A DNA stretch of 64,000 bases, taken from positions 4,673-68,672 of the forward strand of contig JAPPCZ010000055.1 of NCBI GenBank assembly GCA_028824685.1, in the 5' to 3' direction. The notes under the pieces were generated by a model, which did not search any database, was not told the origin of the DNA, and saw nothing but the letters and a program-made list of their open reading frames with translations. Position numbers and translations under genes: made by a program. The stretch's first letter is position 1. Every line of letters begins with the position of its first letter. The DNA is from Candidatus Poribacteria bacterium (GTDB lineage Bacteria; Poribacteria; WGA-4E; WGA-3G). Positions 19,273 through 53,547 of this stretch are shown here, piece after piece.

Positions 19273-19665
19273 CGGTATTTCTCCTTTGCCACAAGATGTG
19301 TGAAAATAGAGTCGGAGGTTGATACACAGTTTACATTATGTGTTAATTGTAACTGAAAATTGAGAAGGTGTCAAGCACATTTAGAAGCATAGTGTGTGTA
19401 AAGTTTTCGTACAAAGAAAGCATCTTGTCGGTTGAGTTTCGCTTCGCCCTCTACGATCTACATATTGAATTAGGACGTTTCACATCACATTTAGGACGTT
19501 TTGCACGTCCTAGTGACGTGCAGAAGTCAATCAGGACAAGGATTGTGACGTGGATTTTGAGATTTTTTGTTTTTTCTTCTCTTTTTCTTTAGAAATTTTG
19601 CGTATATTGAAAACATTATTTAATTGTGTGATAATAATATTAACATAAACATGTTACAGCGTATC

Positions 19666-20431: not shown

Positions 20432-20618
20432 TCAAATCATCTCCTAACTCTTAGTAGAAATAGATAGAGTCTAACAGAAATGATCGATAATTAAAAGAAA
20501 TTTGACACCAGTTAATATTTATGAGATACGCTGTACTTATTGCGAATCATTTTATACTTAAAATCAGCGTAATCTGTGAAATCCGTATAATCCGTGATTC
20601 AGACAAAATACCACCCGA

Positions 20619-34297: not shown

Positions 34298-35488
34298 TTG
34301 AAAGAAAATATGAAAACTCAAAAAATTTTGATCCTATTCTTTGCGATTGTTGTTGCTGTAGTGCTTTTAATGTTTTCAACGTGGCATCAATGGAGCGACA
34401 ATCAAAAAACGACAAAGGAACGGTTGAGACCGGTTCCTCCAATTGCTGAGTTTAATCATGGTACTTCAATAAGTGATGTTGCTTTTTCTTCCACGAATCC
34501 GGAACTATTTGCAAGTGCTGGAGCAGGGAACACTGTAAAAATTTGGAACGTAAACAATCAAGATAGTCCTCAAATAACGCTGGAAGTTCAGGAAGACAAT
34601 GATGGTTCTACCAACCTGAACGGTATAGCTTTTTCACCAACAGATAAATGGTTAGCCAGTAAAACTTTCCGAACACTTGAATTTTGGGATGTTTCATCAG
34701 GTAGGAAAATTGACTTTATGAAGATTCCAGCATCTACATTCGCTATTTCTCCTGAAGGACGTTATCTTGCAACAGCGGCAAGAGAATTGAAATTGTGGGA
34801 TATTAGTAATCCAAAAGACATTAAAGGATTAGTTTTATTACCGCCAGAGATAGGTTGGAAGCCTCTATCTCTGGAAGAGATAAGTGTACCCGGTCCTACT
34901 TCTGATCCGCTAACAAAATATCACATGTTACCTAATAAATACCATCATGCAACAGACAACCAGTTTTATGATTCAATTGATTTTTCAAATAACGGCAAAT
35001 GGCTTGCAGCTGGAGGAGATGTAGATGACAAAATCAAGAAAAAAAGGATTGGTATAATAAAAGTTTGGGATTTACGAAGTAAACAACTTATCAAGCTAAT
35101 AAAGAGGGACAGAAAAGTTGCAGAAGGTGCTAAACCTAAAGAATTTATCAATAGTATCCGTGCCATCAATTTCTCGCCAGACAACCGTTTTTTTGCTGTC
35201 GCGGCTAACAATGGGTTAACTATATGGTCTCTACCTGAATGGAATATCTATCATGAAGTACTGGATCAACGCATAAGAGATATAGCGTTTTCACCAGATG
35301 GCACGATGTATGCAGTTGCAGATGTCAAGGGAATCACCCTCTGGTCAGTGGAAAATATTACCCCTATTGCTTTGCTAAGAGGAAAAGGTCTTTTTGCCAG
35401 TGTTTCAATAATTGCGTTTTCTGCAGATGGCAGCATGATTGCTGGTGGGAATTACGATGGTGTTCTTCGTCTCTGGGATTTGAGGTAA
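34298..35488 (+). CDS. N-terminally membrane-anchored WD40 beta-propeller protein, array copy 1
   Basis: N-terminal TM anchor (KILILFFAIVVAVVLLMFSTW), then the conserved linker RPVPPIAEFNHG and WD40-like blades (GNTVKIWNVNN, LEFWDVSSG, LKLWDISNP, IKVWDLRSKQLIK, LTIWSLPEWNIYHE, ITLWSVEN, GVLRLWDLR). Confidence 0.65.
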   Translation: MKENMKTQKILILFFAIVVAVVLLMFSTWHQWSDNQKTTKERLRPVPPIAEFNHGTSISDVAFSSTNPELFASAGAGNTVKIWNVNNQDSPQITLEVQEDNDGSTNLNGIAFSPTDKWLASKTFRTLEFWDVSSGRKIDFMKIPASTFAISPEGRYLATAARELKLWDISNPKDIKGLVLLPPEIGWKPLSLEEISVPGPTSDPLTKYHMLPNKYHHATDNQFYDSIDFSNNGKWLAAGGDVDDKIKKKRIGIIKVWDLRSKQLIKLIKRDRKVAEGAKPKEFINSIRAINFSPDNRFFAVAANNGLTIWSLPEWNIYHEVLDQRIRDIAFSPDGTMYAVADVKGITLWSVENITPIALLRGKGLFASVSIIAFSADGSMIAGGNYDGVLRLWDLR

Positions 35489-35492
35489 TTAA

Positions 35493-36668
35493 ATGAACGG
35501 TAAAAAAATCTTTCTGTTGTTCTTAGCTATTATAGTTGCTGGTGTTCTGTTAGCGTCTTCAACTTGGCGGCAGTGGAACGACAATCAAAAGACTCTTTTG
35601 GAACGAACAGGACCGATTCTACCTATTGCAGAATTTAATCATGGTGCCATGGTTGATGACGTTGAATTTTCTCCATCAAATCAAGATATCATTGCAAGTG
35701 TAGGTGATGACAATAACATAAAAATTTGGAACACAAACAACCCAAGTACCCTTACGAAAACCCTGCATGATAATGAAGAAACTCTCGTCTCATTAGATTT
35801 TCTAAACAACGGAGAATTGCTTTTATGTAAAGGGCTGCATAGGAAGATGATATTATGTGATGCATCTTCATGGGAAAGAATAATTTTACCTCAGGAACAG
35901 TACTGTTGGGATGCTGAAATTTCACCATCTGCGGATTACCTTGCGAACGTCTATTCGCAACGATTAGAGTTGTGGGACATTCGGAATCCAAATGAGATCA
36001 CTGAGATAACCGAAATAACAGAGATTCATCATACTAAATATGCCAATTCCATGCGATGTGCTGACTTTTCACCTAACGGAAAATGGCTTGCCATTGGATT
36101 TGAAAACGGTGACATAAAATTTTGGGATTTAGAACAAAAGCAATTTATCAAGACGCTATCCGTTCCACATGAAAGTCACGAGCACTTGAAAGATATAATC
36201 TTTTCGCCTGATGGACGTTGGATTGCCGCTGCTGAACATAGCAGTTTGTCATTATGGGATGTTCAGCAAAGTCGACGTGTAAAGTTATTGGAGGATACCT
36301 ACATAGGTTTTCTCCGAGATGTAAAGTTTTCTCCTGATGGAAGATATATCGGCATAAAAACCCAGGATAAAATGAACAGATATACTATATGGAGTTTACC
36401 AGAAGTGCAAATCTACCATGAGGGGAGTGGTCGATACGTCACTGATCTTGCATTTTCGCCTGATGGGAAGATTCTTGCAATTTCAGATGCTGGTGAGGTA
36501 ACTCTTTTATCTATTGAAAATCTTACACCTATTGCCCTGCTGCAAGGTAAAGGCTTTTTAGGTGGAGCTATGGAACTTTCATTTTCACAAGATGGTAGTA
36601 TGCTTGCAGGTGGAGGTTATGGTGGTGTTCTTCGTCTCTGGGATATAGGGAAACTAAATGAACGGTAA
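35493..36668 (+). CDS. N-terminally membrane-anchored WD40 beta-propeller protein, array copy 2
   Basis: MNGKKIFLLFLAIIVAGVLLASSTWRQWNDNQKTLLERTGPILPIAEFNHG (identical to copy 3 over about 50 aa). Blades end in GVLRLWDIGKLNER. The 3' end overlaps the next start (ctaAATGAACGGTAA). Confidence 0.65.
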   Translation: MNGKKIFLLFLAIIVAGVLLASSTWRQWNDNQKTLLERTGPILPIAEFNHGAMVDDVEFSPSNQDIIASVGDDNNIKIWNTNNPSTLTKTLHDNEETLVSLDFLNNGELLLCKGLHRKMILCDASSWERIILPQEQYCWDAEISPSADYLANVYSQRLELWDIRNPNEITEITEITEIHHTKYANSMRCADFSPNGKWLAIGFENGDIKFWDLEQKQFIKTLSVPHESHEHLKDIIFSPDGRWIAAAEHSSLSLWDVQQSRRVKLLEDTYIGFLRDVKFSPDGRYIGIKTQDKMNRYTIWSLPEVQIYHEGSGRYVTDLAFSPDGKILAISDAGEVTLLSIENLTPIALLQGKGFLGGAMELSFSQDGSMLAGGGYGGVLRLWDIGKLNER

Positions 36669-37836
36669 AAAAATCTTTCTGTTGTTTTTAGCGATTATAG
36701 TTGCTGGAGTTCTGTTAGCGTCTTCAACTTGGCGGCAGTGGAACGACAATCAAAAGACTCTTTTGGAACGAACAGGACCGATTCTACCTATTGCAGAATT
36801 TAATCATGGTGTCCGGATCCATGCTATTGCTTTTTCACCAAGAAATCCTAACCTCATTGTTACTACGGGTGAAGACTACACCATAAAAGTTTGGGATAGG
36901 CACAACACACAAGCACCAGAAGTTGTATTGACCGGTATGCTTGCGCATGATGGTAGTGGGGACACTTATTCTGTTGAATGTATATCGTTTTCACCAACAG
37001 GTGAATGGCTTATAAGAAAAATAAATTGGATGCTGGAATTCTGGGATGTGTCTTCAAAAAAGAAATTGAATTCTTTTGATATCGGTCCTTCAAATGCAGC
37101 TATTTCTCCTGCCAATCACTTACTCGCAACTGCCTTTAACGATGTAAGACTATGGAATATCAGCAACCCAAATGAAATAATAGGAATGTTTGTGTTACCA
37201 CCACTGATAGGCGAACAAGCATTATCACACGAAGATGTGAGATTGTCTAAACATCATCACACTGATCTTGCAGTTAAACATCACAATGAGACGCTTAACC
37301 AAAATTATCGTATGGTTGATATCTCAAATGATGGAAAGTGGGTAGCCGCAGGAGGAGGTATATATGACAAAACGATCAGAAGATACTTTGATAAGGTAAA
37401 AGTCTGGAACTTACAAAGCAAGCAACTTGTTAAGATTATAGAGAGAAAGATACCGGATGACCGTAGACCTGGAGAATATCGTCAAGATATTCAATTTATT
37501 TGTTTTTCCCTTGACAACCGTTTTTTTGCCGTCGCAGGTGAGAGTGAATTGACTATTTGGTCTTTGCCTGAGTGGAATATCTATCACAAATTACCATGTC
37601 AACACATCAGCGATATGGCGTTTTCGCCAAGTGGAAAGATATTTGCCATTGTAGATGTGAAGGGAATAACCCTCTGGTCAGTAGACAATATGACCTCAAT
37701 TGCATTACTTAAGAGAAAAAGTCTTTGGGACAGTGTTACGAAAATTGCGTTTTCACCTGAGGGTAACATGCTCGCGGGTACTGAATATGATGGAATTCTG
37801 AGTCTTTGGGATTTGAGGGAACTAAATGAACGGTAA
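36658..37836 (+). CDS. N-terminally membrane-anchored WD40 beta-propeller protein, array copy 3
   Basis: Same N-terminal 50 aa as copy 2. Blades (TIKVWDRHN, LEFWDVSSK, VRLWNISNP, VKVWNLQSKQLVK, LTIWSLPEWNIYHK, ITLWSVDN, GILSLWDLRELNER). Overlaps the next gene's start. Confidence 0.65.
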   Translation: MNGKKIFLLFLAIIVAGVLLASSTWRQWNDNQKTLLERTGPILPIAEFNHGVRIHAIAFSPRNPNLIVTTGEDYTIKVWDRHNTQAPEVVLTGMLAHDGSGDTYSVECISFSPTGEWLIRKINWMLEFWDVSSKKKLNSFDIGPSNAAISPANHLLATAFNDVRLWNISNPNEIIGMFVLPPLIGEQALSHEDVRLSKHHHTDLAVKHHNETLNQNYRMVDISNDGKWVAAGGGIYDKTIRRYFDKVKVWNLQSKQLVKIIERKIPDDRRPGEYRQDIQFICFSLDNRFFAVAGESELTIWSLPEWNIYHKLPCQHISDMAFSPSGKIFAIVDVKGITLWSVDNMTSIALLKRKSLWDSVTKIAFSPEGNMLAGTEYDGILSLWDLRELNER

Positions 37837-39046
37837 AAAAGTGATCTTGTTGTTTTTAGCGATTATAGTTGCTGGAGTTCTCTTAGCATTTTCTACATGG
37901 CGGCACTGGAACAACAATCAAAAAACGATACTCGAAAGAATGAGGCCGATTCCTCCAATTGCTGAGTTCAATCATGGTAGCTCAATAAGAAGTATTGCTT
38001 TTTCTCCCAAGAATCCAGACCATATTGCAAGTGCAGGAGAGGGGAATAAAGTAAAGGTATGGAACATAAACAACACAAAATTACCTGAAAAGGTGCTGAT
38101 AGCTCACCCTCCCAAAGAAGGTGGTATTCCTTTATTTGTAAATTTCATCACTTTTTCGCCTACAGGGAAATGGTTTGTCAGTAATTGCATTCGGAAGTTT
38201 TCATTTTGGGATATCTCCTCATGGAAGGAAATTAATTCTATAGAGATACCCGCAGGAGATTTAGTTATTTCTCCAAAGGGCACATATTTTGCATCAGCAT
38301 CTAACGATGTAAAATTGCTGAAAATTAGTGATCCAAATAAAGTGTGCGAAATTATCTTATTACCACCTAAGATCGGCTGGGAATCTGTTGCACTGGAAGA
38401 TTTAAATATAGCAAATTCTAAATCTGAAAGAACCATAATTAAAAATCAAAATACCATTACAAAATATAGAAATGCATCGTTGACTCAACAATATAAAGCA
38501 ATTGACTTTTCACATGATGGAAAATGGATCGCTGCTGCTGGACAGATGTATGATTTTACCAGTGAAAAATGGACCCACAAAATAAAAATATGGGATTTAC
38601 ATCGGAAACAGCTATTTAAGATTATTGAGAGATATATTACCGAAAAACCCCAAACCAAGAATGACACAAATCGATTATATCAGCCTTTTTACTCCAGTGA
38701 TATTCGATCAATTAAGTTTTCTCCTGATAATCGTTTTTTTGCTGTTGGGGCTCGGAATGGGTTGACGATATGGTCTATACCAGAGTGGAATATTTACCAC
38801 GAAATCTTGCATCAACAAATATGGGATATCGCCTTTTCACCAGATAGTACGATGTATGCAGTTACAAATGTTAAAGGGATAACCCTATGGTCGGTAGAAA
38901 CTCTCACGCCTATCGTGCTGCTTACGGGATCGGGTTTATACGGTAATAGCCTAATTGAGTTTTCACCCGATGGCAGTACGCTTGCTGGCGGCGGCATGGA
39001 TGGGGTTGTCCGACTTTGGGATGTGAGGAATATAAATGAAAAATAA
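37826..39046 (+). CDS. N-terminally membrane-anchored WD40 beta-propeller protein, array copy 4
   Basis: MNGKKVILLFLAIIVAGVLLAFSTWRHWNNNQKTILERMRPIPPIAEFNHG. Blades (KVKVWNINN, FSFWDISSW, IKIWDLHRKQLFK, LTIWSIPEWNIYHE, ITLWSVETL, GVVRLWDVRNINEK). Confidence 0.65.
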   Translation: MNGKKVILLFLAIIVAGVLLAFSTWRHWNNNQKTILERMRPIPPIAEFNHGSSIRSIAFSPKNPDHIASAGEGNKVKVWNINNTKLPEKVLIAHPPKEGGIPLFVNFITFSPTGKWFVSNCIRKFSFWDISSWKEINSIEIPAGDLVISPKGTYFASASNDVKLLKISDPNKVCEIILLPPKIGWESVALEDLNIANSKSERTIIKNQNTITKYRNASLTQQYKAIDFSHDGKWIAAAGQMYDFTSEKWTHKIKIWDLHRKQLFKIIERYITEKPQTKNDTNRLYQPFYSSDIRSIKFSPDNRFFAVGARNGLTIWSIPEWNIYHEILHQQIWDIAFSPDSTMYAVTNVKGITLWSVETLTPIVLLTGSGLYGNSLIEFSPDGSTLAGGGMDGVVRLWDVRNINEK

Positions 39047-41060
39047 AAACATCTTACTTCTATCAGTAATCTTGATTATAGCAGTTGTCGGTGTTGTATT
39101 GTATTTCATTTTACGTCTGCCGCCGCAGGAATTGTTCCCACAGATATTCGCGCAGCTACCTGAAAAACCGAAACTCATAGCGGAATTCAATCATGGTGCA
39201 ACGCTTGATTCTGACGCGATTCCTTTTGAGGGTTTTACTCTCACAGACGCTACACCAATTTATTCTGTCGCCTTCTCCCCGATAGATGCTTCTCTCATAG
39301 CAAGCGTTAATGCAAACGGTTCCATAAAGTTATGGAACATAAACAACACCAAAGAACCTGTAAAAATTCTTAGACATCCTGGTGTATATCCAATCATCCG
39401 TTTTTCTCCCACAGGTGAACTGCTTGCAAGTGCGGGTTATGGAAAACTGGTATTTTGGGATGTTGCTTCTGGAACAAAGCTTAATTCACTTGAAGCAGCT
39501 GGTGGAGATTTTGCTCTTTCCCCGAATGGTCAACTCGCGACAACCCCGGATGATGTGAAACTCTGGGATATTCGGAATCCAAAGGAGATAAAAGAAGTAG
39601 CGACACTACCGTTCGACGAAGAGCATAAAATCAGAAGTTGGGCATGTGCAGTAGCTATCTCAACAGATGGTAAATTGATTGCCGCTGGATACGCCAATGG
39701 TTATGTGAATGTTTGGAATCTACAGACCAAACAGCATGTGAAAACTTTAAAAACACCCTTTATAGAAATGAGATATTTAAAGTTTTCAACTAATCGCAAA
39801 TACTTGGTCAGTGGAGGTAATGAATGGAAACATAGCGGCCCGAGAGGTTACGTTATGTGGGAATTACTAAGTTGGCAACGTCACGGCGAAGTGCAACGTG
39901 GACACATCGAAAATTTGGCGTTCTCACCAGACGGAAAGATATGTGCAAGTGCCAATCATCAGTCCTATTCTGGAAGAGGGGTAGAACTCTGGACAGTTAA
40001 GAGCGGTGCACCAATTACTGTATTACCAACTGCAAGGGATGTATCGTTTTCGCAAGATGGGAAAAGGATCGCAAGCGGTAACGATGATGGCATTGTCCAA
40101 TTATGGGAACTTACGTCTCAGCAATTAGCGTTAGCCTCTATCCCCACCGACATGGTGCGGTTAATTTATGTCCCGTCAGAAGATGAAGAACCTCCGCCAG
40201 ACATTACAGTAAAATTAGATAAATCAATAAGAGAGGCACAAGACTTCTACGCGGATGAGATGGAACGACACGGTTTCGGCAGAAAAACTTTTACGTTTGA
40301 AACTGATGAGAATGGAAAAGCCAAGATATATCATGGTAAATACAATCAAACCAATATCGATCTGTCAAACGACATCTGGCTAATAATTGGAGGAGATGAA
40401 TCACAGATTTTCCCGTCAGATCCGACATCACTCTATATTGATCATTATGATACATTCTCTTATACTCGTAATGACGGATATTCCACTAAAAACAATGTAT
40501 GGAGAGAGAAAATAAAAGGAATCATCAAGGCAACACATGTTCAGGCATCCGTTAAATTCCTTGATCGGAAATCTGTTGCGTATGCTCTTAGAAGTGCTTT
40601 TAGTGTGCCTGGTATCCACACAGAGCCTGAGCCAAACGCTTTAAAACGTCTTTTCTCCCGTGTTAACGACAAGATGCCTTGGGGAAAAAGATGGGCAAAA
40701 CTGTCCAGATGTGAGGCTGAATGGTTAGATAAAAGCCGCTACTTTAACCCAAACCAACCTTTTTTTGATAAAGCACCAAAGATGGAGATGCGTGTATCCG
40801 TTCCTAAAGATAACGGTCTGCGGCACTTCATATTTGATGTTGCAGATGAAGATGGTATGCACCATGCACAACTGTTTGTAATTCAAAGGTGGAAATTGAA
40901 GTTTCATAATTGCCAAGCTCTAAACGGTAAACAAGAAGCAACCATTGCATTTGAAATCACAGATGCGAAAATAAAGACGGTTAAACTTCGGATGATTGAT
41001 ATGCATGGAAACATCGCAGCACGTGATTTCCAAATTCAGGAAAAAACAGATGAAAAATAA
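39036..41060 (+). CDS. N-terminally membrane-anchored WD40 beta-propeller protein with additional about 270-aa C-terminal domain of unknown function, array copy 5
   Basis: MKNKNILLLSVILIIAVVGVVLYF anchor. PEKPKLIAEFNHG linker. Blades (SIKLWNINN, LVFWDVASG, VKLWDIRNP, VNVWNLQTKQHVK, GIVQLWELTSQQ). C-terminal domain VRLIYVPSEDEEPPPDITVKLDKSIREAQDFYADEMERHGFGRKTFTFETDENGKAKIYHGKY ... PWGKRWAKLSRCEAEWLDKSRYFNPNQPFFDK ... MIDMHGNIAARDF. Confidence 0.65.
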   Translation: MKNKNILLLSVILIIAVVGVVLYFILRLPPQELFPQIFAQLPEKPKLIAEFNHGATLDSDAIPFEGFTLTDATPIYSVAFSPIDASLIASVNANGSIKLWNINNTKEPVKILRHPGVYPIIRFSPTGELLASAGYGKLVFWDVASGTKLNSLEAAGGDFALSPNGQLATTPDDVKLWDIRNPKEIKEVATLPFDEEHKIRSWACAVAISTDGKLIAAGYANGYVNVWNLQTKQHVKTLKTPFIEMRYLKFSTNRKYLVSGGNEWKHSGPRGYVMWELLSWQRHGEVQRGHIENLAFSPDGKICASANHQSYSGRGVELWTVKSGAPITVLPTARDVSFSQDGKRIASGNDDGIVQLWELTSQQLALASIPTDMVRLIYVPSEDEEPPPDITVKLDKSIREAQDFYADEMERHGFGRKTFTFETDENGKAKIYHGKYNQTNIDLSNDIWLIIGGDESQIFPSDPTSLYIDHYDTFSYTRNDGYSTKNNVWREKIKGIIKATHVQASVKFLDRKSVAYALRSAFSVPGIHTEPEPNALKRLFSRVNDKMPWGKRWAKLSRCEAEWLDKSRYFNPNQPFFDKAPKMEMRVSVPKDNGLRHFIFDVADEDGMHHAQLFVIQRWKLKFHNCQALNGKQEATIAFEITDAKIKTVKLRMIDMHGNIAARDFQIQEKTDEK

Positions 41061-42879
41061 AAAAATATTACTCTTTTTTTTAATTTTGGCAGTAGCAGTT
41101 GTTGGGATTGTAGTATATTTCATCTCACGTCCGCCGCAGCATCAGGAATTGCTCCCACAGACATTCGCGCAGCTGCCTGAAAAACCGAAACTCATAGATG
41201 AATTCCATCATGGACTCTGGGTTTATTCCGTAGCAATTTCACCTACTGATCCATCCCTTGTTGCGGGTGTAGATCAAGATGGCACTATAAAGCTATGGAA
41301 CAGAAACGACACAAAGAAAATATTCAAATTCTTCAGACATCCTGAAAAAATTCCGTCCATTGGTTTCTCACCCATAGGTAAATTGCTTGCGTGTGCTGGC
41401 TATGGAACACTTACAATATGGGATGTTGTTTCAGGAACAAAGATCAATTCACTTGAGACATCATACCGTCAATTCGCTTTTTCGCCAGATGGGCAAAAAC
41501 TGGTGACAATTCGGGATAACAGAAAAGGAATACATGAACCAGGAGTGAAAATCTGGGATATCCGGAATCCTAAGAAAATAACGGAAATTGCTATCATCAA
41601 TATACCACATGCAACCAAAGGTTCGACATGCGCGATTGACATTTCGCCCGATGATAAATGGATCGCTGCCGGATATTCTAACGGAACTATACACGTATGG
41701 GATTTAAGTACCAAACAACTTGTCAAAACATTAGAAACATCTTTTTATCAGATGGATTATTTAAAGTTTTCCCCTAACAACAAATATATGGTCGCTGGTG
41801 GACGTGATCAGGAGGGGTATATCAATTATTCTGTGAAGTGGTTCATCATGTGGGAATTGCTAAGTTGGCAACGTTTGGGTGAGGTGCTTCGAGGAAATGT
41901 TGAAAATATGGTGTTCTCCCCAGATGGGAAGATATGCGTGGGGGCAAATGATTGGTCTCATCACGGACGGGGTGTTGAAATCTGGTCAACTACGAATGGT
42001 GAGCCAATTTCTTCATTACCAACGGAGGCAACGGATGTTTCATTTTCACATGATGGCAACCTTCTCGCCACTGGAGGCAAGGATGGTTTTGTTCGAGTGT
42101 GGGAGCTTACGCAATCGCAATTAAATTTAGACAAAGTCCGCAACGATGTCGTGCGATTAATTTACTACTTACCGAAAGATAAAGAACCCTCCCCAAACAT
42201 TACACAAAAAATAGATAAAACTATAAGAAAGGTTCAAAAGCACTACGCAGATGAGATGGAACGACACGGTTTCGGCAGAAAAACTTTTACTTTTGAAACC
42301 GATGAGAATGGAAAAGCCAAGATATATCACATGAAAGAAATACCGATCGGAGCACATGATTTGCAGTTGAACGATATCTGGCTTGTTTTTGTTGATTATG
42401 AGAACGATATTCAGTCAGTTCTTATTGATAACATGTTAAGACAGTTCAAATCAGCTGGGCGCAATTATCATCATTATGATAATACATTCACATTCCCTAC
42501 AAGGAGGAAGGGGGTTTTTAAAGACAAAATTGGGATGTATGATATTAAGGGATTCACAGGAGATGGCAGTTTTGTCTATGCTAAAAAGAAGGGCATTGAT
42601 TGGAAATTAATAGTATACTCACTTAAGCATAAATTTGACGTATTACATCGGAGACATCATTTACCTAAGTATGAACCTAACGTAGTTAAAAGGGTTTTCA
42701 AGGGTATTAACAGTATTATGCCATGGGGCAAGAGTTGGGTGAAATTGTCTAAGTGTGAAGCAGAATGGTTGGATAAGAGTCGTTTCTTCAACCCAAACCA
42801 ACCTTTCTTTGACAAACGACCAGATATTGAAATAAGCATAATAAAAACTGATATTGGTTCAAAAAAAAATTCCAGTTAA
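41050..42879 (+). CDS. N-terminally membrane-anchored WD40 beta-propeller protein with C-terminal extra domain, array copy 6 (reading frame interrupted at an A9 tract; the C-terminal 84 codons continue in another frame to 43130)
   Basis: Start at MKNKKILLFF (overlaps the copy 5 stop; the track ORF begins at 40996). Paralog of copy 5 throughout (same ADEMERHGFGRKTFTFETDENGKAKIYH block; PWGKSWVKLSKCEAEWLDKSRFFNPNQPFFDK). The frame breaks at the A9 run at 42861-42869. Confidence 0.6.
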   Translation: MKNKKILLFFLILAVAVVGIVVYFISRPPQHQELLPQTFAQLPEKPKLIDEFHHGLWVYSVAISPTDPSLVAGVDQDGTIKLWNRNDTKKIFKFFRHPEKIPSIGFSPIGKLLACAGYGTLTIWDVVSGTKINSLETSYRQFAFSPDGQKLVTIRDNRKGIHEPGVKIWDIRNPKKITEIAIINIPHATKGSTCAIDISPDDKWIAAGYSNGTIHVWDLSTKQLVKTLETSFYQMDYLKFSPNNKYMVAGGRDQEGYINYSVKWFIMWELLSWQRLGEVLRGNVENMVFSPDGKICVGANDWSHHGRGVEIWSTTNGEPISSLPTEATDVSFSHDGNLLATGGKDGFVRVWELTQSQLNLDKVRNDVVRLIYYLPKDKEPSPNITQKIDKTIRKVQKHYADEMERHGFGRKTFTFETDENGKAKIYHMKEIPIGAHDLQLNDIWLVFVDYENDIQSVLIDNMLRQFKSAGRNYHHYDNTFTFPTRRKGVFKDKIGMYDIKGFTGDGSFVYAKKKGIDWKLIVYSLKHKFDVLHRRHHLPKYEPNVVKRVFKGINSIMPWGKSWVKLSKCEAEWLDKSRFFNPNQPFFDKRPDIEISIIKTDIGSKKNSS

Positions 42880-43130
42880 CTGCATCTGATGATGATGGAA
42901 TACATCAACTTCAACTGTTTGTCACTGAGAAATCAGAAAAACATTATTGGTTACACAAACTTCAAGGGTGTCAAGCACTAAACGGTAAAAAGAAGGCGAC
43001 CGTTGAATTTGGAATATCCAATCCCAAAATTGAGGAAGGTGAAATTCGGATGATTGATATGTATGGAAATATCGCATCACGAGAATTCAGATTTTTGGAG
43101 AAAACATCAGAACAAGATAAAGAACCGTAG
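42874..43130 (+). pseudogene. Out-of-frame continuation of array copy 6 (C-terminal about 84 codons homologous to the copy 5 C-terminus)
   Basis: Translation QLTASDDDGIHQLQLFVTEKSEKHYWLHKLQGCQALNGKKKATVEFGISNPKIEEGEIRMIDMYGNIASREFRFLEKTSEQDKEP aligns with copy 5 FIFDVADEDGMHHAQLFVIQRWKLKFHNCQALNGKQEATIAFEITDAKIKTVKLRMIDMHGNIAARDFQIQEKTDEK. Adding one A to the A9 run would restore a single ORF 41050-43130. Confidence 0.6.
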
Positions 43131-43152: not shown

Positions 43153-43665
43153 ATGTCTAAAAGAATTGCAATCTTCCCAGCAAGTTTCGACCCGATCACG
43201 CTCGGTCATGTGGACTTAATTGATCGGGTTTGCAAACTTGACGTGTTTGATGAACTCGTCATCGTTATCGGTGTGAACCCGGCAAAACAGGAACGGTTCA
43301 CGATTGAAGAACGCATCCAGATGCTTGACGAGGTCATCAAACCTTATCCGAAAGCTACTATTGCGGGGGACGCTGGGTTGATGGTGCATTACGCGCAAAC
43401 ACGTGGGGCATGTGCTATCATTCGCGGACTACGCGAAATCTCCGATTTTGAATGGGAATTCAAAATGGCACGGATGAATCAACAAATCGCTCCAGAAATT
43501 GATACGCTCTTTATGGTTGCAAATAAACAATACGCACATATCAGCTCAACACTCGTGATGGAGGTTGTGGAGATGGGGCAAGGCAAATTGAGTGAAGAGA
43601 AATTGTTGGAGATGGTGCCACCGGTTGTCGTTGAATTTATCAAGCAGAAATATCATGTCCAGTAA
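43153..43665 (+). CDS. coaD: Phosphopantetheine adenylyltransferase
   Basis: Start at MSKRIAIFPASFDPITLGHVDLI with the RBS aaaggag; the track ORF is extended upstream to 43054. H/TxGH nucleotidyltransferase motif and ISSTLVMEVVEMG, typical of CoaD. Confidence 0.9.
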   Translation: MSKRIAIFPASFDPITLGHVDLIDRVCKLDVFDELVIVIGVNPAKQERFTIEERIQMLDEVIKPYPKATIAGDAGLMVHYAQTRGACAIIRGLREISDFEWEFKMARMNQQIAPEIDTLFMVANKQYAHISSTLVMEVVEMGQGKLSEEKLLEMVPPVVVEFIKQKYHVQ

Positions 43666-43705: not shown

Positions 43706-46051
43706 CTAAAACCGATTATCTAAACTCACGCTTACATTGAAGCCCGGTGCATTCACGCCAGACCCATGTGGACGATACCGACGATCCAACAGGTTTTCAA
43801 GTGATAATGTCAAACGCGTATAGTCAAAGAGTTTAACACCACAGCGTACGTTGAGTGTCCACCATCCCGGTGTGCCTGCATCAACTGCATTGCTGTTGTC
43901 GTCAAATTCAACTTCCTGAGGGTTGCGTGTTTTTCCTTGTATCCGCGGGTCGCGGATGTCACTCCGATTTAGGCGTCTCTGTTCCGCAGCACCCCGCATA
44001 AACAACGTTGCCCAATACTGCGTATTTACCGGTTCCCACTGGATTCCTACAATACCGTTCAAAGGTGGTTCTCTCCGAGTGCGTGCTTCCCAAGGTTTAT
44101 CAGGATCGGGTTCTACACCGTTAATCAAAAGCACTTCCCCACGCAGCAACGCAGCATTCCCATAGATTGACAATGAAGAACCAATCGGTACCACTCCTGC
44201 TAACTCAACTCCCTGAAACTGCGCCTCATCAACGTTGTCAAACACGAGTACGTCAATACCTTCGTATTCCTTGATTAGGTCTTGAAGGAGTTTAGGAATT
44301 TCGTCTTCTTTGTATGCCTCTTGGACAGGTCTACGCGTAACTAAACCGTTGACCCTGCTGTGGAACAGTGTTAATGCACCACGAAAAGAGGCATGTTTCG
44401 CCTTGAGACCTCCCTCAACTGTCCACGAAGTCTCCGCTTCAAGGTCGGGACTCGGTGCCGTTACCCCCTCATTCGTCACCTCTACTGCTGTTGTATCGTT
44501 CAACGATGGCGCGCGAAACGCTGTGGCAAAACTACTCACAAAATTTAGATAATCTATCAAACCGACAACTATCCCCGCACTTCCTGTCAGACTACTGTCG
44601 GATTCATTGAATTCATCAAAAACCTCAGATCGTAGAGACAGGTCCGCATCGGTTTGATAAAGTGTTGCTCGTCCGCCAAGGATAAGTTCAACTCGTTCAT
44701 GTATCGTTATTTCATCTTGTAGGAACAGACTTGCATCCCAAAACTGCGAACCGTTGATAAATCGTCCAAAATTCTCATCAACAGTTTCTTTCCCTGTCTC
44801 AAGATCAGTTTCGACAGTCCGGCTTTGCAGCATGTCTAAGTAAAAATCACCACCACCCACCAAACGTTGCTGTGGAAGAATACTACTAACTATCTGCGCG
44901 CTTAAACCGATGGTATTAACCGTATCGTCCCGCTGTCTACGTGAAGTCGCATCGCGTTTTACCTCGTTCCGTCCTTCTTTCTGTCGGTGAAAAGAACCTG
45001 TGAATCTATATAGGTCAATGCTGGAGATTTCAGGATTCGCTACATAGTTAACGTATACAAGGTCGCGATTTTGCGGTTCAAAAAAGAATTCACTAAACTC
45101 CTGTGGTGCGATTTTATCATAACGTGGTGTTTGTGGTTGCCGCCACATTTGATAAGCAACATTGAGAGTTCTTCTTTCGTCAATTTGGTAAGCAACTTTA
45201 GCATCGGCATCGTAGGCTCTCCAACCCAGGGGGCCTTCATTGTCTACAAGCCATCTATCAGGAATATCATCTTTTGACAACTCACTCACTTCATCATAGT
45301 CATAAAGTTGCACACCGCTCGGCATTTCGTCTACTATTTCAAATTTACGGTTTTTGTAGTGAAGGTCGTATCCACCGCCAGGATTTAGATCTCCGTAGAA
45401 TCGCACTCCACCGCCAACACTGAATCCAAATCGTCTTTGGCTGCCAGTCACCTCTAACCTACCGATTCGTTCCTGTGTAGCGGTGGTATAGCGAGCAAGA
45501 AGTCGAGGATGTATTTCCCATGTTTCCTGCGCTGGATTTAGCGGGATTGCTTTCGTAAAGAAACTCACAACGCCCCCCATGGCACCGCTCCCATATAGTA
45601 CAGAACTTGATCCGAGTAGCACCTCTGCGCGGTCAAGGTTTTCCGGTGCTATGGTTGCAGTATATTGGTTTGGACCAGAGCGAAATGTTGAGTTATTGAG
45701 TCGAACCCAATCGACTTGAATTACTGTTTGATAGCCGGTTAAACTTCGGAGCATCGGTGAACCTTGACCGACAGTTGTTTGCTGTGCGATGACACCAACA
45801 GAATCCTGAAGTAGATTGGACGCTATATCTGCATTGGTCCGTTCTAATTGTTTTAAATTGAGTACAGTGATAGTGTTCGGTGTTTTAAATGGTTCTTTCT
45901 CGGCACGTGTGGCTGTCACCGTTATCTCCTGCATTTCCACAACGTTTTCGTCATTATATTCTTTAAGTTTCACTTTTGCGCCTGCATGGGGTTGCCAAAT
46001 TACAAAGAGTGCTATACTAAAAATAAGAAAAAGATAAAAGGGCTTTTGCAT
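43706..46051 (-). CDS. TonB-dependent outer-membrane receptor
   Basis: Signal peptide. Plug domain (ITVTATRAEKEP...VLNLKQLERTNADIASNLLQDSVGV...GSPMLRSLTGYQTVIQVDWVRLNNS). Long beta-barrel. C-terminal ...SVSLDNRF terminal aromatic. Confidence 0.85.
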   Translation of the reverse strand: MQKPFYLFLIFSIALFVIWQPHAGAKVKLKEYNDENVVEMQEITVTATRAEKEPFKTPNTITVLNLKQLERTNADIASNLLQDSVGVIAQQTTVGQGSPMLRSLTGYQTVIQVDWVRLNNSTFRSGPNQYTATIAPENLDRAEVLLGSSSVLYGSGAMGGVVSFFTKAIPLNPAQETWEIHPRLLARYTTATQERIGRLEVTGSQRRFGFSVGGGVRFYGDLNPGGGYDLHYKNRKFEIVDEMPSGVQLYDYDEVSELSKDDIPDRWLVDNEGPLGWRAYDADAKVAYQIDERRTLNVAYQMWRQPQTPRYDKIAPQEFSEFFFEPQNRDLVYVNYVANPEISSIDLYRFTGSFHRQKEGRNEVKRDATSRRQRDDTVNTIGLSAQIVSSILPQQRLVGGGDFYLDMLQSRTVETDLETGKETVDENFGRFINGSQFWDASLFLQDEITIHERVELILGGRATLYQTDADLSLRSEVFDEFNESDSSLTGSAGIVVGLIDYLNFVSSFATAFRAPSLNDTTAVEVTNEGVTAPSPDLEAETSWTVEGGLKAKHASFRGALTLFHSRVNGLVTRRPVQEAYKEDEIPKLLQDLIKEYEGIDVLVFDNVDEAQFQGVELAGVVPIGSSLSIYGNAALLRGEVLLINGVEPDPDKPWEARTRREPPLNGIVGIQWEPVNTQYWATLFMRGAAEQRRLNRSDIRDPRIQGKTRNPQEVEFDDNSNAVDAGTPGWWTLNVRCGVKLFDYTRLTLSLENLLDRRYRPHGSGVNAPGFNVSVSLDNRF

Positions 46052-47404: not shown

Positions 47405-47650
47405 ATGAATCAAAGAGAGGCTCTGTTTGAAAAAGCGCAACAAAACCCAAACGGATTGAAGTATTCCGAGTTTGAACGGCTTATGCGCGGATGTGGATGG
47501 ACGCAACGCCGACAAAGAGGTAGTCATCGGATTTGGTATTCTCCCAAAGGATATAGATTATCAATTCAACCGAACAAGTCAATGGCTAAAGGTTACCAAG
47601 TAAGGCAATTTTTAGCACAATACAACAAGGAAAATGAAGATGAAGAATAA
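47405..47650 (+). CDS. hicA: HicA-family toxin (type II TA)
   Basis: 81 aa. LKYSEFERLMRGCGWTQRRQRGSHRIWYSPKG matches the HicA/YcfA double-stranded-RNA-binding-like fold with the conserved GSH motif. Confidence 0.7.
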   Translation: MNQREALFEKAQQNPNGLKYSEFERLMRGCGWTQRRQRGSHRIWYSPKGYRLSIQPNKSMAKGYQVRQFLAQYNKENEDEE

Positions 47651-47993
47651 TCATGACGATTTTGACGGATTTACTATAAAGATATTTCTTGACGAAGACG
47701 GTGATTATCTCGCTCATTTCATTGAACTTCCAAATGTCTCTGCTTTCGGACCTACGCCTGCACAAGCATTAATTGAATTGAAAACAGCGTGGGAGTTGAT
47801 GAAAGAGTGTTATCAAGAGGATAATGTTCCCATTCCAAAACCACCAGCGCGAGAATTGAATGACGTGCCGTTTAATGTCTCTGTTGATCCACACCTATAT
47901 CACCGCTTAACAGATGAAGCCGCAAAAGCTGGAATGAGTCTCAACGCACTCGTAGAACAGAAATTAGCTGAAACAACAAGTGTTGATACCTGA
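47634..47993 (+). CDS. hicB: HicB-family antitoxin (UPF0150 plus C-terminal RHH-like)
   Basis: Overlaps hicA by 17 nt. FTIKIFLDEDGDYLAHFIELPNVSAFGPTPAQALIELKTAW is a HicB-like RNaseH-fold N-terminus. C-terminal LTDEAAKAGMSLNALVEQKLAE is ribbon-helix-helix-like. Confidence 0.65.
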   Translation: MKMKNNHDDFDGFTIKIFLDEDGDYLAHFIELPNVSAFGPTPAQALIELKTAWELMKECYQEDNVPIPKPPARELNDVPFNVSVDPHLYHRLTDEAAKAGMSLNALVEQKLAETTSVDT

Positions 47994-51378: not shown

Positions 51379-53547
51379 ATGAAAGCTACCGAAACACCTA
51401 TACTTAGATTTTTACAAGGTCCGAAACAGTTTGTTGTTCCAATTTTTCAACGTAGGTACAGTTGGGAACAAAAACAATGTCAGAAACTCTGGGATGATGT
51501 GCTAAAGGCTGGTGAAAATGATGAGATTAAGTGGCATTTTCTCGGCTCAATTGTATACATGGAACCAGAGGAAGAACAGCATACTGTCAGCATTCCAAGA
51601 CACCAAGTAATTGACGGTCAACAGCGATTAACGACTTTATCGCTCTTATTATTAGCACTCAGCCGTGCAATAAAAGAAGATAGTGACATTGATATAACCC
51701 CGAAACAACTGGTGAATTATTATCTTTTCAACGATGGGGAAAGGGAAGAATTCCGTCACAAACAAGTTCTCACAAAAGGGGATAAAGATACACTCATCTA
51801 TCTGTTGGAGAGTAAAGAAATCCTTCCTCAAGATCCTTCTCCATTTTTGGTAAAGAATTACCGATTTTTTGAAAGGAAAGTCAAAGATGTTGATCTTAAA
51901 ACTTTATATACGGGACTTGGAAAGTTGATGATTGTGGACATCGTTTTGAATCGGGAAGGAGCAAATCCGCAATTGATTTTTGAGAGTCTTAATTCGACTG
52001 GGGTCGAGCTCACAGAAGCAGACAAAATTCGGAACTATGTCCTCATGGGACAACCATTTAGTTTCCAAAATAGACTGCACGAGAATTTTTGGTTTCCTAT
52101 GGAACAGTATTTTGGTAAAAAGGAATACACAAAACGCCTTGACAGTTTCATGCGAGATTATCTCACATTAAAAACTGAGCGGATCCCCACCCGTAAGAAA
52201 ATTTACGAAAAATTTAAAGCATATCTTCCTGAATATATGTTCAACAAGCCAGAAAACGCTGAGCAAATTGTCAGTGAGATTTCACGTTATGGGAAGCACT
52301 ACGTTAACATTACACAGAAAGAAGAAGATCCGGAACTTAAGGTTTGTTTAGAGGATATAAGGGAGCTGCGTGCCGAAGTTGTCTATCCGTTCTTACTTGA
52401 AGTTTATGATTATTATAGACGAGGTGATATAGAGAAATCGGAAGTCATAAAAACGCTTCGATTGGTTGAGAGTTACGTTTTTCGGCGTTCTATATGCGAA
52501 TTGTCAGGTAAATTTCTCAATCATACGTTTGTTAAAATTTTGAAAGAGATGTCTAAGAAGAACATTAAGGATTATATTAAATCTTTTAATGATACTTTAT
52601 TGTTTATGCCCTTTATTAGTCGTTTCCCTAAAGATGATGAATTCAAAGAAGCATTGTTGAAAAAAGACATTTATACTGCTCAGTCTGGTCGCGTCTGCAA
52701 ATATATGCTACGAAAACTGGAGAACTATGGACATAAAGAACCTATCAATGTTGACGACTATACGATTGAACATGTAGTGCCGCAGACACCCACTCCAGAA
52801 TGGCGAAAGGAATTAAGTGAAGACTTTAGCGAAATATATGATAAATTCCTTCACACTATTGGCAACCTTACACTTACCGCTTACAATTCAGAATATAGCA
52901 ATTCTCCTTTCAAAGAGAAACGGGACATGGAAAAAGGATTTTGCCAGAGTCACTTATATTTGAATGAAAGTCTTGCACGTGCAGAACAATGGAACTTATC
53001 TGCTATCCTAACAAGAGCAAAGTTACTTGCAGAGAAAGCTTGCGAAATCTGGATTTATCCTGAAGTCGACGATGATCTATCTATTGAGAGGAACGATAAT
53101 TTTCCATCTTCTCAACAAAAACTTGCTGCTACAACGAGTGTAACAACAGCCGGATATGGCACATCTTCAAATTCAACTTCCATGGCTGACTGGTCGGAAT
53201 GGGAACAAGAATTAGGTTGGATTATCATTGAGATGCTTGAGTATAAGGATCCTGCAGGTTTAATGATATTTGAACCAAGGGATATTCAAGATTATTATCC
53301 TCGGCTAAAAGAAAAGTGGCCGAATAATAATAGTATAAGTGAAACTGTAAGTAAGATGTTGGGTTCATTGGTAAATCGTGGAGAACTTGAAAAGCCAAAC
53401 TGGGGCGAATATAGGCTTGTTGAAGGTGAGCTTTTGCATCTTCATTTAAAACTGCGAATTGCAGAAAAAGAACTTACAAAGAACAAGCAAAAATCCGCTG
53501 AGTTAGAAGATAAACTTACTGAATTGGAAGACGAACTTACTGAGTAA
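51379..53547 (+). CDS. GmrSD-like DUF262/DUF1524 nuclease (type IV restriction / BrxU-like defence protein) with C-terminal wHTH-like and coiled-coil extension
   Basis: N-terminal DUF262/ParB-like: FVVPIFQRRYSWEQKQCQKLWDD, GSIV, IDGQQRLTTLSLLLLAL. C-terminal DUF1524 His-Me finger: DDYTIEHVVPQTP...FLHTIGNLTLTAYNSEYSNSPFKEK. Tail LEDKLTELEDELTE is coiled coil. RBS taaggagaa. Confidence 0.75.
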   Translation: MKATETPILRFLQGPKQFVVPIFQRRYSWEQKQCQKLWDDVLKAGENDEIKWHFLGSIVYMEPEEEQHTVSIPRHQVIDGQQRLTTLSLLLLALSRAIKEDSDIDITPKQLVNYYLFNDGEREEFRHKQVLTKGDKDTLIYLLESKEILPQDPSPFLVKNYRFFERKVKDVDLKTLYTGLGKLMIVDIVLNREGANPQLIFESLNSTGVELTEADKIRNYVLMGQPFSFQNRLHENFWFPMEQYFGKKEYTKRLDSFMRDYLTLKTERIPTRKKIYEKFKAYLPEYMFNKPENAEQIVSEISRYGKHYVNITQKEEDPELKVCLEDIRELRAEVVYPFLLEVYDYYRRGDIEKSEVIKTLRLVESYVFRRSICELSGKFLNHTFVKILKEMSKKNIKDYIKSFNDTLLFMPFISRFPKDDEFKEALLKKDIYTAQSGRVCKYMLRKLENYGHKEPINVDDYTIEHVVPQTPTPEWRKELSEDFSEIYDKFLHTIGNLTLTAYNSEYSNSPFKEKRDMEKGFCQSHLYLNESLARAEQWNLSAILTRAKLLAEKACEIWIYPEVDDDLSIERNDNFPSSQQKLAATTSVTTAGYGTSSNSTSMADWSEWEQELGWIIIEMLEYKDPAGLMIFEPRDIQDYYPRLKEKWPNNNSISETVSKMLGSLVNRGELEKPNWGEYRLVEGELLHLHLKLRIAEKELTKNKQKSAELEDKLTELEDELTE

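What the first reader, a model, noticed from the sequence alone, without database searches (positions are those of the whole stretch)
42855..42880. A9 homopolymer interrupts the reading frame of the last WD40 array gene; an A10 tract would restore full length
The ORF 41050-42879 stops immediately after the run ggttcaaaaaaaaattcc at 42861-42869. The +1 frame continues for 84 codons (to 43130) with clear homology to the C-terminus of the upstream paralog: QLFVTEKS...CQALNGKKKATVEFGISNPKIEEGEIRMIDMYGNIASREF against QLFVIQRW...CQALNGKQEATIAFEITDAKIKTVKLRMIDMHGNIAARDF. This is either a homopolymer sequencing or assembly error, a recent pseudogenisation, or slipped-strand phase variation of a surface protein.
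Basis: seen in the sequence. Interest (0 to 1): 0.5.

Follow-up and report, generated by a model that had tools for sequence, protein, structure and literature searches.

The report
Recent poly-A frameshift truncating a Poribacteria gene
One copy of a multi-copy sponge-symbiont (Poribacteria) membrane protein gene has gained two extra A's in a run of seven, which cuts off its last folded domain; the change is real and recent, but it is an ordinary kind of mutation rather than a new mechanism.

Summary
A9 lies at 42861-42869. The ORF 41050-42879 (609 aa) stops three codons later, and the next 86 codons in the -1 frame encode the conserved C-terminus. The repair needs correcting: all nine positional orthologs are in frame with 7 nt at this spot, and one has a pure A7. 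The window allele is therefore A7+2, and A7 fits the homologs better than A10.

The window comes from a Candidatus Poribacteria contig of an Illumina sponge metagenome. The same A9 appears in four assembly records, so an assembly slip is unlikely.

The tract is not conserved: orthologs have it interrupted or lack it. No RNA structure follows it. All assemblies of this strain show A9. Nothing therefore supports a programmed frameshift or fast phase variation.

The lost segment is the beta-sandwich of a two-domain module shaped like the OgpA O-glycopeptidase. In this subfamily the module has lost its HExxH zinc motif.

Best reading: a young, apparently fixed slipped-strand frameshift in a decay-prone, recombining gene family. 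It is probably leaky, because A9 and A_AAA_AAA are known slippage sites, but that is inferred.

Aside: the window's only other 9-base run is an A9 at the orfA/orfB junction of an IS5-family element.

The parts
42861..42869 (+). A9 homopolymer. It equals the orthologous 7-nt stretch (a pure A7 in one ortholog) plus 2 nt. In the zero frame it reads TCA AAA AAA AAT, so it also contains the -1 slippery heptamer A_AAA_AAA (42861-42867).
41050..42879 (+). Truncated ORF of 609 aa. It comprises an N-terminal signal-anchor helix, a WD40 beta-propeller (about residues 50-355), a degenerate metzincin-like domain and the first strand of the C-terminal beta-sandwich, and it ends KKNSS*.
42870..43130 (+). 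Out-of-frame remainder: 86 codons plus TAG in the -1 frame. It encodes the rest of the C-terminal beta-sandwich domain. It has no stop codons, and its first in-frame start codon is at 43050, so it is unlikely to be translated on its own.
39036..41060 (+). Intact tandem paralog (674 aa, 51% identical). It overlaps the start of the frameshifted gene by 11 nt.
34298..39046 (+). Four short (391-406 aa) signal-anchor + WD40 genes. They form the upstream part of the six-gene co-directional array.
43153..43665 (+). coaD-like cytidylyltransferase gene. With the TonB-dependent receptor (43706-46051, minus strand) it is the synteny anchor that identifies positional orthologs.

Best explanation
This is a genuine and evolutionarily young frameshift allele. 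The orthologous 7-nt stretch became a pure A7, a state seen in one ortholog. Slipped-strand mispairing during replication then lengthened it by 2 nt to A9; alternatively it went to A10 and lost one A.

The gene now ends three codons after the tract. Its product is a 609-aa membrane-anchored protein with a WD40 propeller and a degenerate metalloprotease-like domain. It lacks the roughly 85-residue C-terminal beta-sandwich. In the structurally closest solved enzyme, OgpA, that beta-sandwich forms one wall of the substrate cleft.

The allele appears fixed, or at least dominant, in this Poribacteria strain. The gene belongs to a tandemly duplicated, recombining family restricted to Poribacteria, in which other copies also carry frameshifts and a nonsense codon. 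The most likely status is therefore a nascent pseudogene or truncated variant, not a regulated switch.

Shown here:
- the tract, the frame break, and the in-frame 7-nt state in orthologs;
- reproducibility of A9 across assemblies;
- the domain that is lost.

Inferred:
- the replication-slippage origin;
- the functional consequence;
- partial rescue. A9 and A_AAA_AAA are slippage-prone for RNA polymerase and ribosomes, so a minority of full-length SKKKFQL... protein is probably still made.
For: - Tract and frame break.
- Positional orthologs. Nine are followed by coaD, and by the TonB receptor wherever the contig extends that far. They are L008 (88% nt identity), L007, L009, L006, L011, L010, L002, L004 and L005. 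All are in frame with exactly 2 nt fewer. L009 has a pure A7 (GSKKFQL), L007 has AAATAAA, L010 has CAAAAA and L002 has GAAAAA.
- Reproducibility. The exact 609-aa product is in the ENA scaffold and in NCBI as MDE0483016.1 on a 108,791-bp contig. L161 and L162 are 100% identical to the window and carry A9. A parallel case (P0023) shows that ENA 'ROBB21' records and NCBI JAPP... MAGs are paired assemblies of the same project. That project used Illumina reads and metaSPAdes.
- No general tract inflation. The window still holds ten A7, nine T7 and one T8.
- Youth. The 86 downstream codons have no stop and only 4 window-unique codons, against 25 of 250 upstream. Locally the window is 95-97% nt-identical to intact orthologs.
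- Family decay. Other copies carry lesions: L002/L003 an in-frame TAA, L016 and L028 frameshifts, L157 a 1-nt insertion, and L163/L164 and L165 an apparent single-base shortening of a short A run in both, at the same codon position.
- The lost domain. The AF2 model of the paralog's C-terminal region has pLDDT 77 and pTM 0.78. It shows a catalytic-like domain plus a beta-sandwich at residues 220-305, and the break falls after the first strand. The best structural match is OgpA 6z2d at E 5e-12. OgpA has a catalytic domain followed by a beta-sandwich, with the substrate bound between them.
Against: - No reads were available. Minority tract lengths, or a systematic read-level artefact shared by all assemblies, cannot be ruled out.
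- The four assembly records may derive from overlapping libraries. Robbins 2021 sponge samples were sequenced through the Earth Microbiome Project, and 'SHAF22' may be the same material.
- The downstream frame is perfectly open and well conserved. That is equally what a still-functional, recoded gene would look like.
- The window's only other 9-base run is also an A9 on its coding strand, and it also sits at a frame junction. This could hint at something systematic about A9 in this genome or dataset.
Confidence: 0.6

Rival explanations
1. Phase variation. The A tract is a contingency locus whose length flips by replication slippage, switching between a full-length protein and one lacking the beta-sandwich.
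For: An A9 tract is long enough to be hypermutable. Tract length differs between relatives: A7 in L009 and A9 here. The product is an envelope-anchored member of an expanded symbiont gene family.
Against: The tract is not maintained. It is interrupted in L007, L010 and L002 and absent in L008, L006, L004, L005 and the paralog. All four assembly records of this strain show A9. The tract lies 87% of the way into the gene, so the 'off' state keeps most of the protein. No other array gene carries a long tract.
Confidence: 0.12
2. Selected recoding. The A9 is used to make two isoforms from one gene, either by RNA-polymerase slippage (as at the A9 of T. thermophilus dnaX or the A11 of C. rodentium tssM1) or by -1 ribosomal frameshifting on A_AAA_AAA.
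For: Nine A's is the length at which transcriptional slippage becomes efficient in many bacteria, and it is the dnaX tract length. tssM1 has the same layout, with a poly-A just before a premature stop and the C-terminal domain in another frame. The zero frame gives a perfect X_XXY_YYZ heptamer, and a -1 slip yields the same SKKKFQL product as A10. The downstream frame is intact. Three of five frameshifted family members, this one included, break at canonical heptamers.
Against: The site and the two-frame layout are conserved in none of nine orthologs. The 81 nt downstream fold no better than shuffles (z -0.99). No SD-like motif lies upstream. Indels concentrate in homopolymers, which automatically look like slippery heptamers.
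Confidence: 0.12
3. Sequencing or assembly artefact. The true tract is A7 or A10 and the gene is intact.
For: Homopolymers are the classic site of length miscalls. Both 9-base runs in the window are out of frame relative to homologs: this one by +2, and the IS one by +1. The assemblies may share reads.
Against: Four assembly records built with at least two assemblers agree. The data are Illumina, where a consensus error of +2 at A9 is very unlikely. Ten A7, nine T7 and one T8 remain at their lengths. No other split gene was found among the suspicious ORF pairs checked. The A7- and A10-repaired proteins are absent from a collection of about 15 billion proteins.
Confidence: 0.1

Closest known systems
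Citrobacter rodentium tssM1 poly-A transcriptional frameshifting (Gueguen et al. 2014, PMC4256274)
   Same: A poly-A run lies immediately before a premature stop. The C-terminal domain is encoded in another frame. A truncated and a full-length variant are both possible.
   Different: tssM1 has A11 and the slippage was shown experimentally. The phenomenon recurs in Yersinia and both forms are required. Here the tract is A9, unique to one strain, with no expression data.
Thermus thermophilus dnaX A9 transcriptional slippage, and the 9A/9T survey of Baranov et al. 2005 (PMC1088944)
   Same: [quoted passage not shown] Nine nucleotides is the length at which selection against slippery runs appears. 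Disrupted ORFs with 9A/9T are listed there as possibly restored by slippage.
   Different: In dnaX the templated A9 is the in-frame state and slippage makes the shorter product. Here the templated A9 is out of frame and slippage would be needed to make the longer product.
Slipped-strand frameshift pseudogenes and 'savior' slippage in symbiont genomes (reviewed in Atkins et al. 2016, PMC5009743; Blochmannia example PMC3017870; listed and otherwise from my own knowledge)
   Same: A homopolymer indel sits in a host-associated bacterium. The gene is otherwise intact, and polymerase infidelity could plausibly rescue it.
   Different: Poribacteria have large genomes (about 5-6.7 Mb chromosomes among the loci) that are not strongly AT-biased (42% GC here). 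The affected gene is one of many paralogs rather than an essential single-copy gene.
Simple-sequence contingency loci (phase-variable genes of Haemophilus, Neisseria and Campylobacter; from my own knowledge)
   Same: A mononucleotide tract lies inside the coding sequence of an envelope-associated protein.
   Different: Contingency tracts are maintained by selection, usually lie near the 5' end, and vary within populations. None of these holds here.
OgpA O-glycopeptidase of Akkermansia muciniphila (PDB 6z2d; Trastoy et al. 2020, PMC7518263)
   Same: The C-terminal 310 residues of this family model as a metzincin-like domain followed by a beta-sandwich. The top Foldseek hit is OgpA at E 5e-12, and there is a weak Pfam PF12044 match.
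   Different: The module is fused behind a signal anchor and a WD40 propeller. In this subfamily the HExxHxxGxxH motif is lost: the window gene reads YSLKHKFDVLHRRHH and the paralog YALRSAFSVPGIH. More distant Poribacteria relatives keep HELGHxFGLxHDF.

Membership tests
Frameshift pseudogene / truncated allele | The reading frame is broken relative to intact orthologs at the same genomic position. | tested here: met
   Nine syntenic orthologs are in frame; the window has +2 nt.
Frameshift pseudogene / truncated allele | Relaxed constraint or secondary lesions downstream of the break. | tested here: inconclusive
   There are no stops in 86 codons. Four window-unique codons are present (3 non-synonymous, 1 synonymous), against 12 and 13 upstream. 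The counts are too small, and at about 5% divergence only about 0.3 new stops would be expected (my own rough estimate).
Sequencing/assembly artefact | Not reproducible between independent assemblies, or from a platform prone to homopolymer errors. | tested here: not met
   A9 appears in four assembly records. The data are Illumina. Whether the underlying reads are independent could not be tested.
Phase-variable contingency locus | A hypermutable simple repeat inside the gene or its promoter. | tested here: met
   A9 lies within the coding sequence.
Phase-variable contingency locus | Tract length polymorphic within the population or among close strains. | tested here: not met
   All 100%-identical contigs have A9. 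This is consensus level only; read-level variation is not testable here.
Phase-variable contingency locus | The repeat is maintained across orthologs. | tested here: not met
   The tract is interrupted or absent in 8 of 9 orthologs.
Programmed -1 ribosomal frameshift | Slippery heptamer X_XXY_YYZ in the zero frame. | tested here: met
   A_AAA_AAA lies at 42861-42867, and a -1 slip gives SKKKFQL.
Programmed -1 ribosomal frameshift | A stimulatory element: a downstream hairpin or pseudoknot, or an upstream SD-like sequence. | tested here: not met
   The 81 nt downstream have z -0.99 against shuffles. No SD-like motif lies in the 30 nt upstream.
Programmed -1 ribosomal frameshift | Shift site and two-frame layout conserved in orthologs. 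| tested here: not met
   All orthologs are a single ORF.
Programmed transcriptional slippage (dnaX / tssM type) | A run of at least 9 A or T in the sense strand at the frame junction. | tested here: met
   A9 is present.
Programmed transcriptional slippage (dnaX / tssM type) | Heterogeneous tract length in mRNA, with both protein forms made. | not testable with these tools
   This needs a metatranscriptome, a proteome or a reporter assay.
OgpA-like (PF12044 / metzincin) O-glycopeptidase | Catalytic-domain fold followed by a beta-sandwich. | tested here: met
   The AF2 model plus Foldseek gives E 5e-12 to 6z2d. The model is of the paralog, not of the frameshifted gene itself.
OgpA-like (PF12044 / metzincin) O-glycopeptidase | HExxHxxxxxH zinc-binding and catalytic motif. 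| tested here: not met
   The motif is lost in the window gene and its paralog but kept in distant Poribacteria homologs. This suggests a likely non-catalytic, pseudo-enzyme module.

The most novel reading that the evidence does not exclude
The A9 is not decay but a newly arisen recoding site. Poribacterial RNA polymerase and ribosomes would slip efficiently on A9, so the gene would produce a set ratio of two isoforms, with and without the beta-sandwich, as C. rodentium TssM1 does. On this reading, the same property is exploited by the IS5-family element 22 kb upstream. That element has lost its family's canonical -1 site and instead has an A9 at its orfA/orfB junction. It would also explain why several frameshifted family members break at slippery heptamers and yet stay otherwise intact.
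Probability: 0.1. Interest if true: 0.5.

Novelty: new member of a known kind. Interest (0 to 1): 0.2.

Why it matters
The practical consequence concerns annotation. NCBI lists the 609-aa product (MDE0483016.1) as an ordinary hypothetical protein. It is in fact a truncated copy of a gene of about 692 aa, and this affects domain and gene-family counts in Poribacteria.

Biologically, the finding is one data point showing that the Poribacteria-specific WD40/OgpA-like tandem family evolves by duplication, recombination and frequent inactivation. If the frameshift proves leaky, it would be a natural example of a tolerated 'savior' slippage site in an uncultured symbiont. The frameshift itself is a familiar event.

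Tried and rejected
- JGI scan. I scanned JGI metagenomes for the site with a variable tract, using GGTTCAN{5,9}ATTCCAGTTARCTGCATCTGATGATGATGG. There were 0 hits, so this gave no population data.
- Repaired proteins. An exact look-up of the A7- and A10-repaired proteins in the collection of about 15 billion proteins found neither.
- Motif chaining. A regex census of family copies missed many copies and was replaced by a tblastn census. Three apparent 'in-frame stops' from that census (L038, L010, L040) proved to be natural gene ends and were dropped.
- Sorting-signal idea. I tested whether the lost C-terminal piece is a T9SS sorting domain, as reported for Poribacteria WD40 proteins. NCBIfam and Pfam give no hit for this protein. 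Only a distant relative (P0046) has FlgD_ig / Por_Secre_tail matches.
- Downstream RNA structure as a frameshift stimulator was not significant.
- Other overlapping same-strand ORF pairs in the window (24789/25873, 61194/61978) were checked as possible further frameshifts. They are separate genes.
- The N:S comparison upstream and downstream of the break has counts too small to decide.
- Not examined at DNA level: the split pairs P0035/P0013, P0032/P0017 and P0037/P0015, and the truncated protein P0025.
Full report
**1. Observation**

The sequence at 42860-42879 is C-A9-TTCCAGTTAA, so the A9 occupies 42861-42869 and a TAA stop lies at 42877-42879. The ORF starting at ATG 41050 gives 609 aa and ends ...TDIGSKKNSS*. 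The frame offset by -1 is open from 42852 to TAG 43128-43130. After the tract it encodes FQLTASDDDGIHQLQLFVTEK...IDMYGNIASREFRFLEKTSEQDKEP.

Adding one A gives a 693-aa ORF. That ORF aligns over its full length with the upstream paralog (39036-41060, 674 aa) at 51% identity. It is the only A run of 8 or more in the window. Composition predicts about 0.75 such A runs and 0.55 T runs per 64 kb. The tract alone is therefore unremarkable. Its coincidence with the frame jump is the real feature.

**2. What the gene is**

The window is part of ENA ERZ23496516, scaffold ROBB21-1_SAMN13943212_METAG-scaffold_249 (94.8 kb). The gene is called there as 609 aa.

The gene is the last of six co-directional, mostly overlapping genes. 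Four are short (391-406 aa) and two are long (674 aa and the frameshifted one). All begin with a basic N-terminus plus a hydrophobic helix followed by a WD40 propeller.

The long genes carry an extra module of about 330 residues. Homologs of that module come almost only from Candidatus Poribacteria. All 71 GTDB loci found are Poribacteria MAGs, apart from four loci from two 'uncultured bacterium' MAGs.

More distant members keep a HELGHxFGLxHDF metzincin motif. The window gene reads YSLKHKFDVLHRRHH and its paralog YALRSAFSVPGIH at that position, so the catalytic motif is lost.

An AlphaFold model of the paralog's C-terminal 312 residues has pLDDT 77 and pTM 0.78. It shows an alpha/beta domain (about residues 10-205) followed by a beta-sandwich (220-305). 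Its best PDB matches are the Akkermansia O-glycopeptidases OgpA (6z2d, E 5e-12) and Amuc_1438. OgpA consists of a catalytic domain followed by a beta-sandwich, with the substrate bound in the cleft between them.

The frameshift maps just after the first strand of that beta-sandwich. The 609-aa product therefore lacks essentially the whole last domain. The remainder has no in-frame start codon before 43050, so it cannot plausibly be made separately.

**3. Comparative evidence at the site**

Nine positional orthologs were recovered. Each is followed by coaD, and by the TonB-dependent receptor wherever the contig extends that far. They are L008 (88% nt identity over about 6 kb), L007, L009, L006, L011, L010, L002, L004 and L005.

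All nine are in frame across the site, and all have exactly 2 nt fewer than the window. The closest local relatives read as follows:

| Locus | Sequence between GGTTC and TTCCAG | Peptide |
|---|---|---|
| L009 | AAAAAAA (A7) | GSKKFQL |
| L007 | AAATAAA | GSNKFQL |
| L010 | ACAAAAA | GSQKFQL |
| L002 | AGAAAAA | GSEKFQL |

L008, L006, L004, L005 and the paralog have unrelated codons at this spot. The window allele is therefore the 7-nt state plus two A's, or A10 minus one. The homopolymer is not a conserved feature of the gene.

**4. Is it real?**

- The exact 609-aa protein also exists in NCBI as MDE0483016.1 (OXI67_10595, Poribacteria MAG) on a 108,791-bp contig. That is a different assembly from the 94,822-bp ENA scaffold.
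- Two further ENA assemblies contain contigs 100% identical to the window over 4,395 bp and 2,317 bp. They are ERZ27277388 k141_55714 and ERZ23499966 SHAF22-1_SAMEA7724353 scaffold_12322. Both show GGTTC-A9-TTCCAG.
- A parallel case (P0023) shows that ENA 'ROBB21' records and NCBI JAPP... MAGs are paired assemblies of one project. I read the ROBB21 label as that project, Robbins et al. 2021, which used Illumina HiSeq, NovaSeq and NextSeq with metaSPAdes.
- The window retains ten A7, nine T7 and one T8. Other suspicious ORF pairs are not split genes.

An assembly error is therefore unlikely. A shared read-level artefact, or non-independence of the libraries, cannot be excluded without reads.

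**5. Age and selection**

The gene is a mosaic. In 50-codon windows, nt identity to individual orthologs ranges from 59% to 100%. One segment is 99-100% identical to L008, while the segment holding the tract is 95-97% identical to L007 and L009. This points to recombination.

Downstream of the tract there are no stops and only four window-unique codons (R>W, E>G at a position that is Glu in all six full-length orthologs compared, P>Q, and one synonymous). Upstream in the same module there are 25 unique codons in 250. The lesion is thus young. The counts are too small to show relaxed constraint. At this divergence (about 5%) roughly 0.3 new stops would be expected, by my own rough estimate, so an open frame is uninformative.

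**6. Programmed event or switch?**

- In the zero frame the tract reads TCA AAA AAA AAT. This contains a perfect A_AAA_AAA heptamer, and a -1 slip gives the same SKKKFQL product as A10.
- The 81 nt downstream fold no better than shuffles (z -0.99). No SD-like motif lies upstream. The two-frame layout is unique to this strain.
- Nine A's is the length at which transcriptional slippage becomes efficient in many bacteria. It is the tract used by T. thermophilus dnaX. C. rodentium tssM1 shows the same layout with A11. Some full-length protein is therefore likely, but this is inference.
- For phase variation, the tract is not maintained in orthologs. All assemblies of the strain agree on A9. The site is 87% of the way through the gene.

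**7. Family context**

A tblastn census of the fetched loci found about 105 full-length copies of the C-terminal module. Genuinely disrupted copies are few but varied:

- L002/L003 carry an in-frame TAA. This is the nearest PANK22 ortholog, and the stop is seen in two assemblies.
- L016 is frameshifted in a T run (T_TTT_TTA).
- L028 looks like GAAACA shortened to GAACA.
- L157 has a 1-nt insertion outside any homopolymer, in an assembly whose contig name suggests hifiasm (long reads; my inference). Its single long gene is a hybrid of the two window paralogs.
- L163/L164 and L165 both read A4 where homologs imply A5, at the same MPWGK codon position. The first is identical in its ENA and NCBI assemblies.

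All five frameshifts compared by frame (the window, L016, L028, L163/L164 and L165) need a -1 correction. Three of the five, including the window, lie on canonical heptamers. This is largely expected, because indels target homopolymers. The picture is a duplicating, recombining family prone to decay.

**8. Verdict**

This is a real, recent, apparently fixed slipped-strand frameshift (confidence about 0.6). It removes the terminal beta-sandwich of one paralog, and leaky rescue is plausible but untested.

| Rival | Confidence |
|---|---|
| Phase variation | about 0.12 |
| Selected recoding | about 0.12 |
| Artefact | about 0.10 |

It is a new instance of a well-known kind of event, and its interest is low to moderate.

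**9. Side observation**

The window's only other 9-base run is T9 at 20163-20171, which is an A9 on the minus coding strand. It lies at the junction of orfA (DUF4096, 20431-20150) and orfB (DDE_Tnp_1, 20328-19666). These belong to an 881-bp IS5-family element with perfect 22-bp inverted repeats.

An A8 would fuse the two ORFs at the same length as the closest relative, L078. Of 80 relatives, 59 instead use a -1 layout, whose GCA_AAA_AAA_GGGG site was read in four of them, in the FVPAKKG motif further downstream. In the window copy that site is fused in frame. Baranov et al. reported IS genes as the main users of 9A/9T slippage.

Noticed in passing
window 19655-20535 (minus strand); A9 = T9 at 20163-20171: An 881-bp IS5-family insertion sequence with perfect 22-bp inverted repeats. 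The window's only other 9-base run, an A9 on the coding strand, sits exactly at the junction of orfA (DUF4096) and orfB (DDE_Tnp_1). An A8 would fuse the two ORFs. The canonical -1 site of its relatives (GCA_AAA_AAA_GGGG in FVPAKKG; 59 of 80 relatives have the -1 layout) is fused in frame here. The recoding site seems to have moved, or this copy is frameshifted.
   Followed up: partly
window 40122-41057 and 42130-43127; alignment A2: The C-terminal module of the long WD40 genes models as an OgpA-like O-glycopeptidase (metzincin-like domain plus beta-sandwich). In this subfamily it has lost the HExxHxxGxxH motif that more distant Poribacteria homologs keep (HELGHxFGLxHDF). It is likely a non-catalytic binding module. 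The WD40 + OgpA-like fusion appears restricted to Poribacteria.
   Followed up: partly
window 41050-43130 versus L006-L011: The gene is strongly mosaic. In 50-codon windows, nt identity to individual orthologs swings between 59% and 100%: one segment is 99-100% identical to L008, and another is 95-97% identical to L007/L009 but only 77-81% to L008. This indicates recombination or gene conversion between strains or paralogs.
   Followed up: partly
window about 41862-41899; L159, L161, L162: Contigs from two other assemblies of the same strain break within about 40 bp of each other inside the WD40 part of this gene. This is consistent with an assembly-graph branch caused by paralog or strain repeats.
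   Followed up: no
L157 (ENA ERZ21862620 ctg116722l) 3827-5864: A related genome has only one long gene before coaD. It is a hybrid of the two window paralogs (like 39036-41048 at the 5' end and 42969 onwards at the 3' end), which suggests unequal crossover. It is itself frameshifted by a 1-nt insertion that is not in a homopolymer.
   Followed up: partly
L002 1590-1625 and L003 (same sequence): The PANK22 positional ortholog carries an in-frame TAA (KIYQINEN*VVIHDLQLNDIW) between the WD40 part and the C-terminal module. The stop is seen in an ENA assembly and a Logan assembly.
   Followed up: partly
L163/L164 about 3205-3215; L165 about 3165-3175; L016 about 1745: Two family members from different studies are frameshifted at the same codon position, MPWGK|(K/R)W, where both read A4 and homologs imply A5. 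One of them forms a G_GGA_AAA heptamer. A third member is frameshifted at T_TTT_TTA. All need a -1 shift, as the window gene does.
   Followed up: partly
proteins P0035/P0013, P0032/P0017, P0037/P0015, P0025: Several further homologs are split or truncated in the variable linker around the NDIWL motif of the C-terminal module. They were not examined at DNA level.
   Followed up: no
window 41074-41081: A T8 run lies in the signal-anchor-coding part (LLFFL) of the same frameshifted gene. It is in frame, and it is the third-longest homopolymer in the window.
   Followed up: no
NCBI MDE0483016.1 (= window 41050-42879): The public MAG annotation lists the truncated 609-aa product as an ordinary hypothetical protein, not as a frameshifted pseudogene.
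   Followed up: no
window 47405-47993 and 51379-53547: Downstream of the array there is a HicA-toxin-like gene with an adjacent small ORF, and a GmrSD_N/GmrSD_C gene, according to the precomputed Pfam hits.
   Followed up: no
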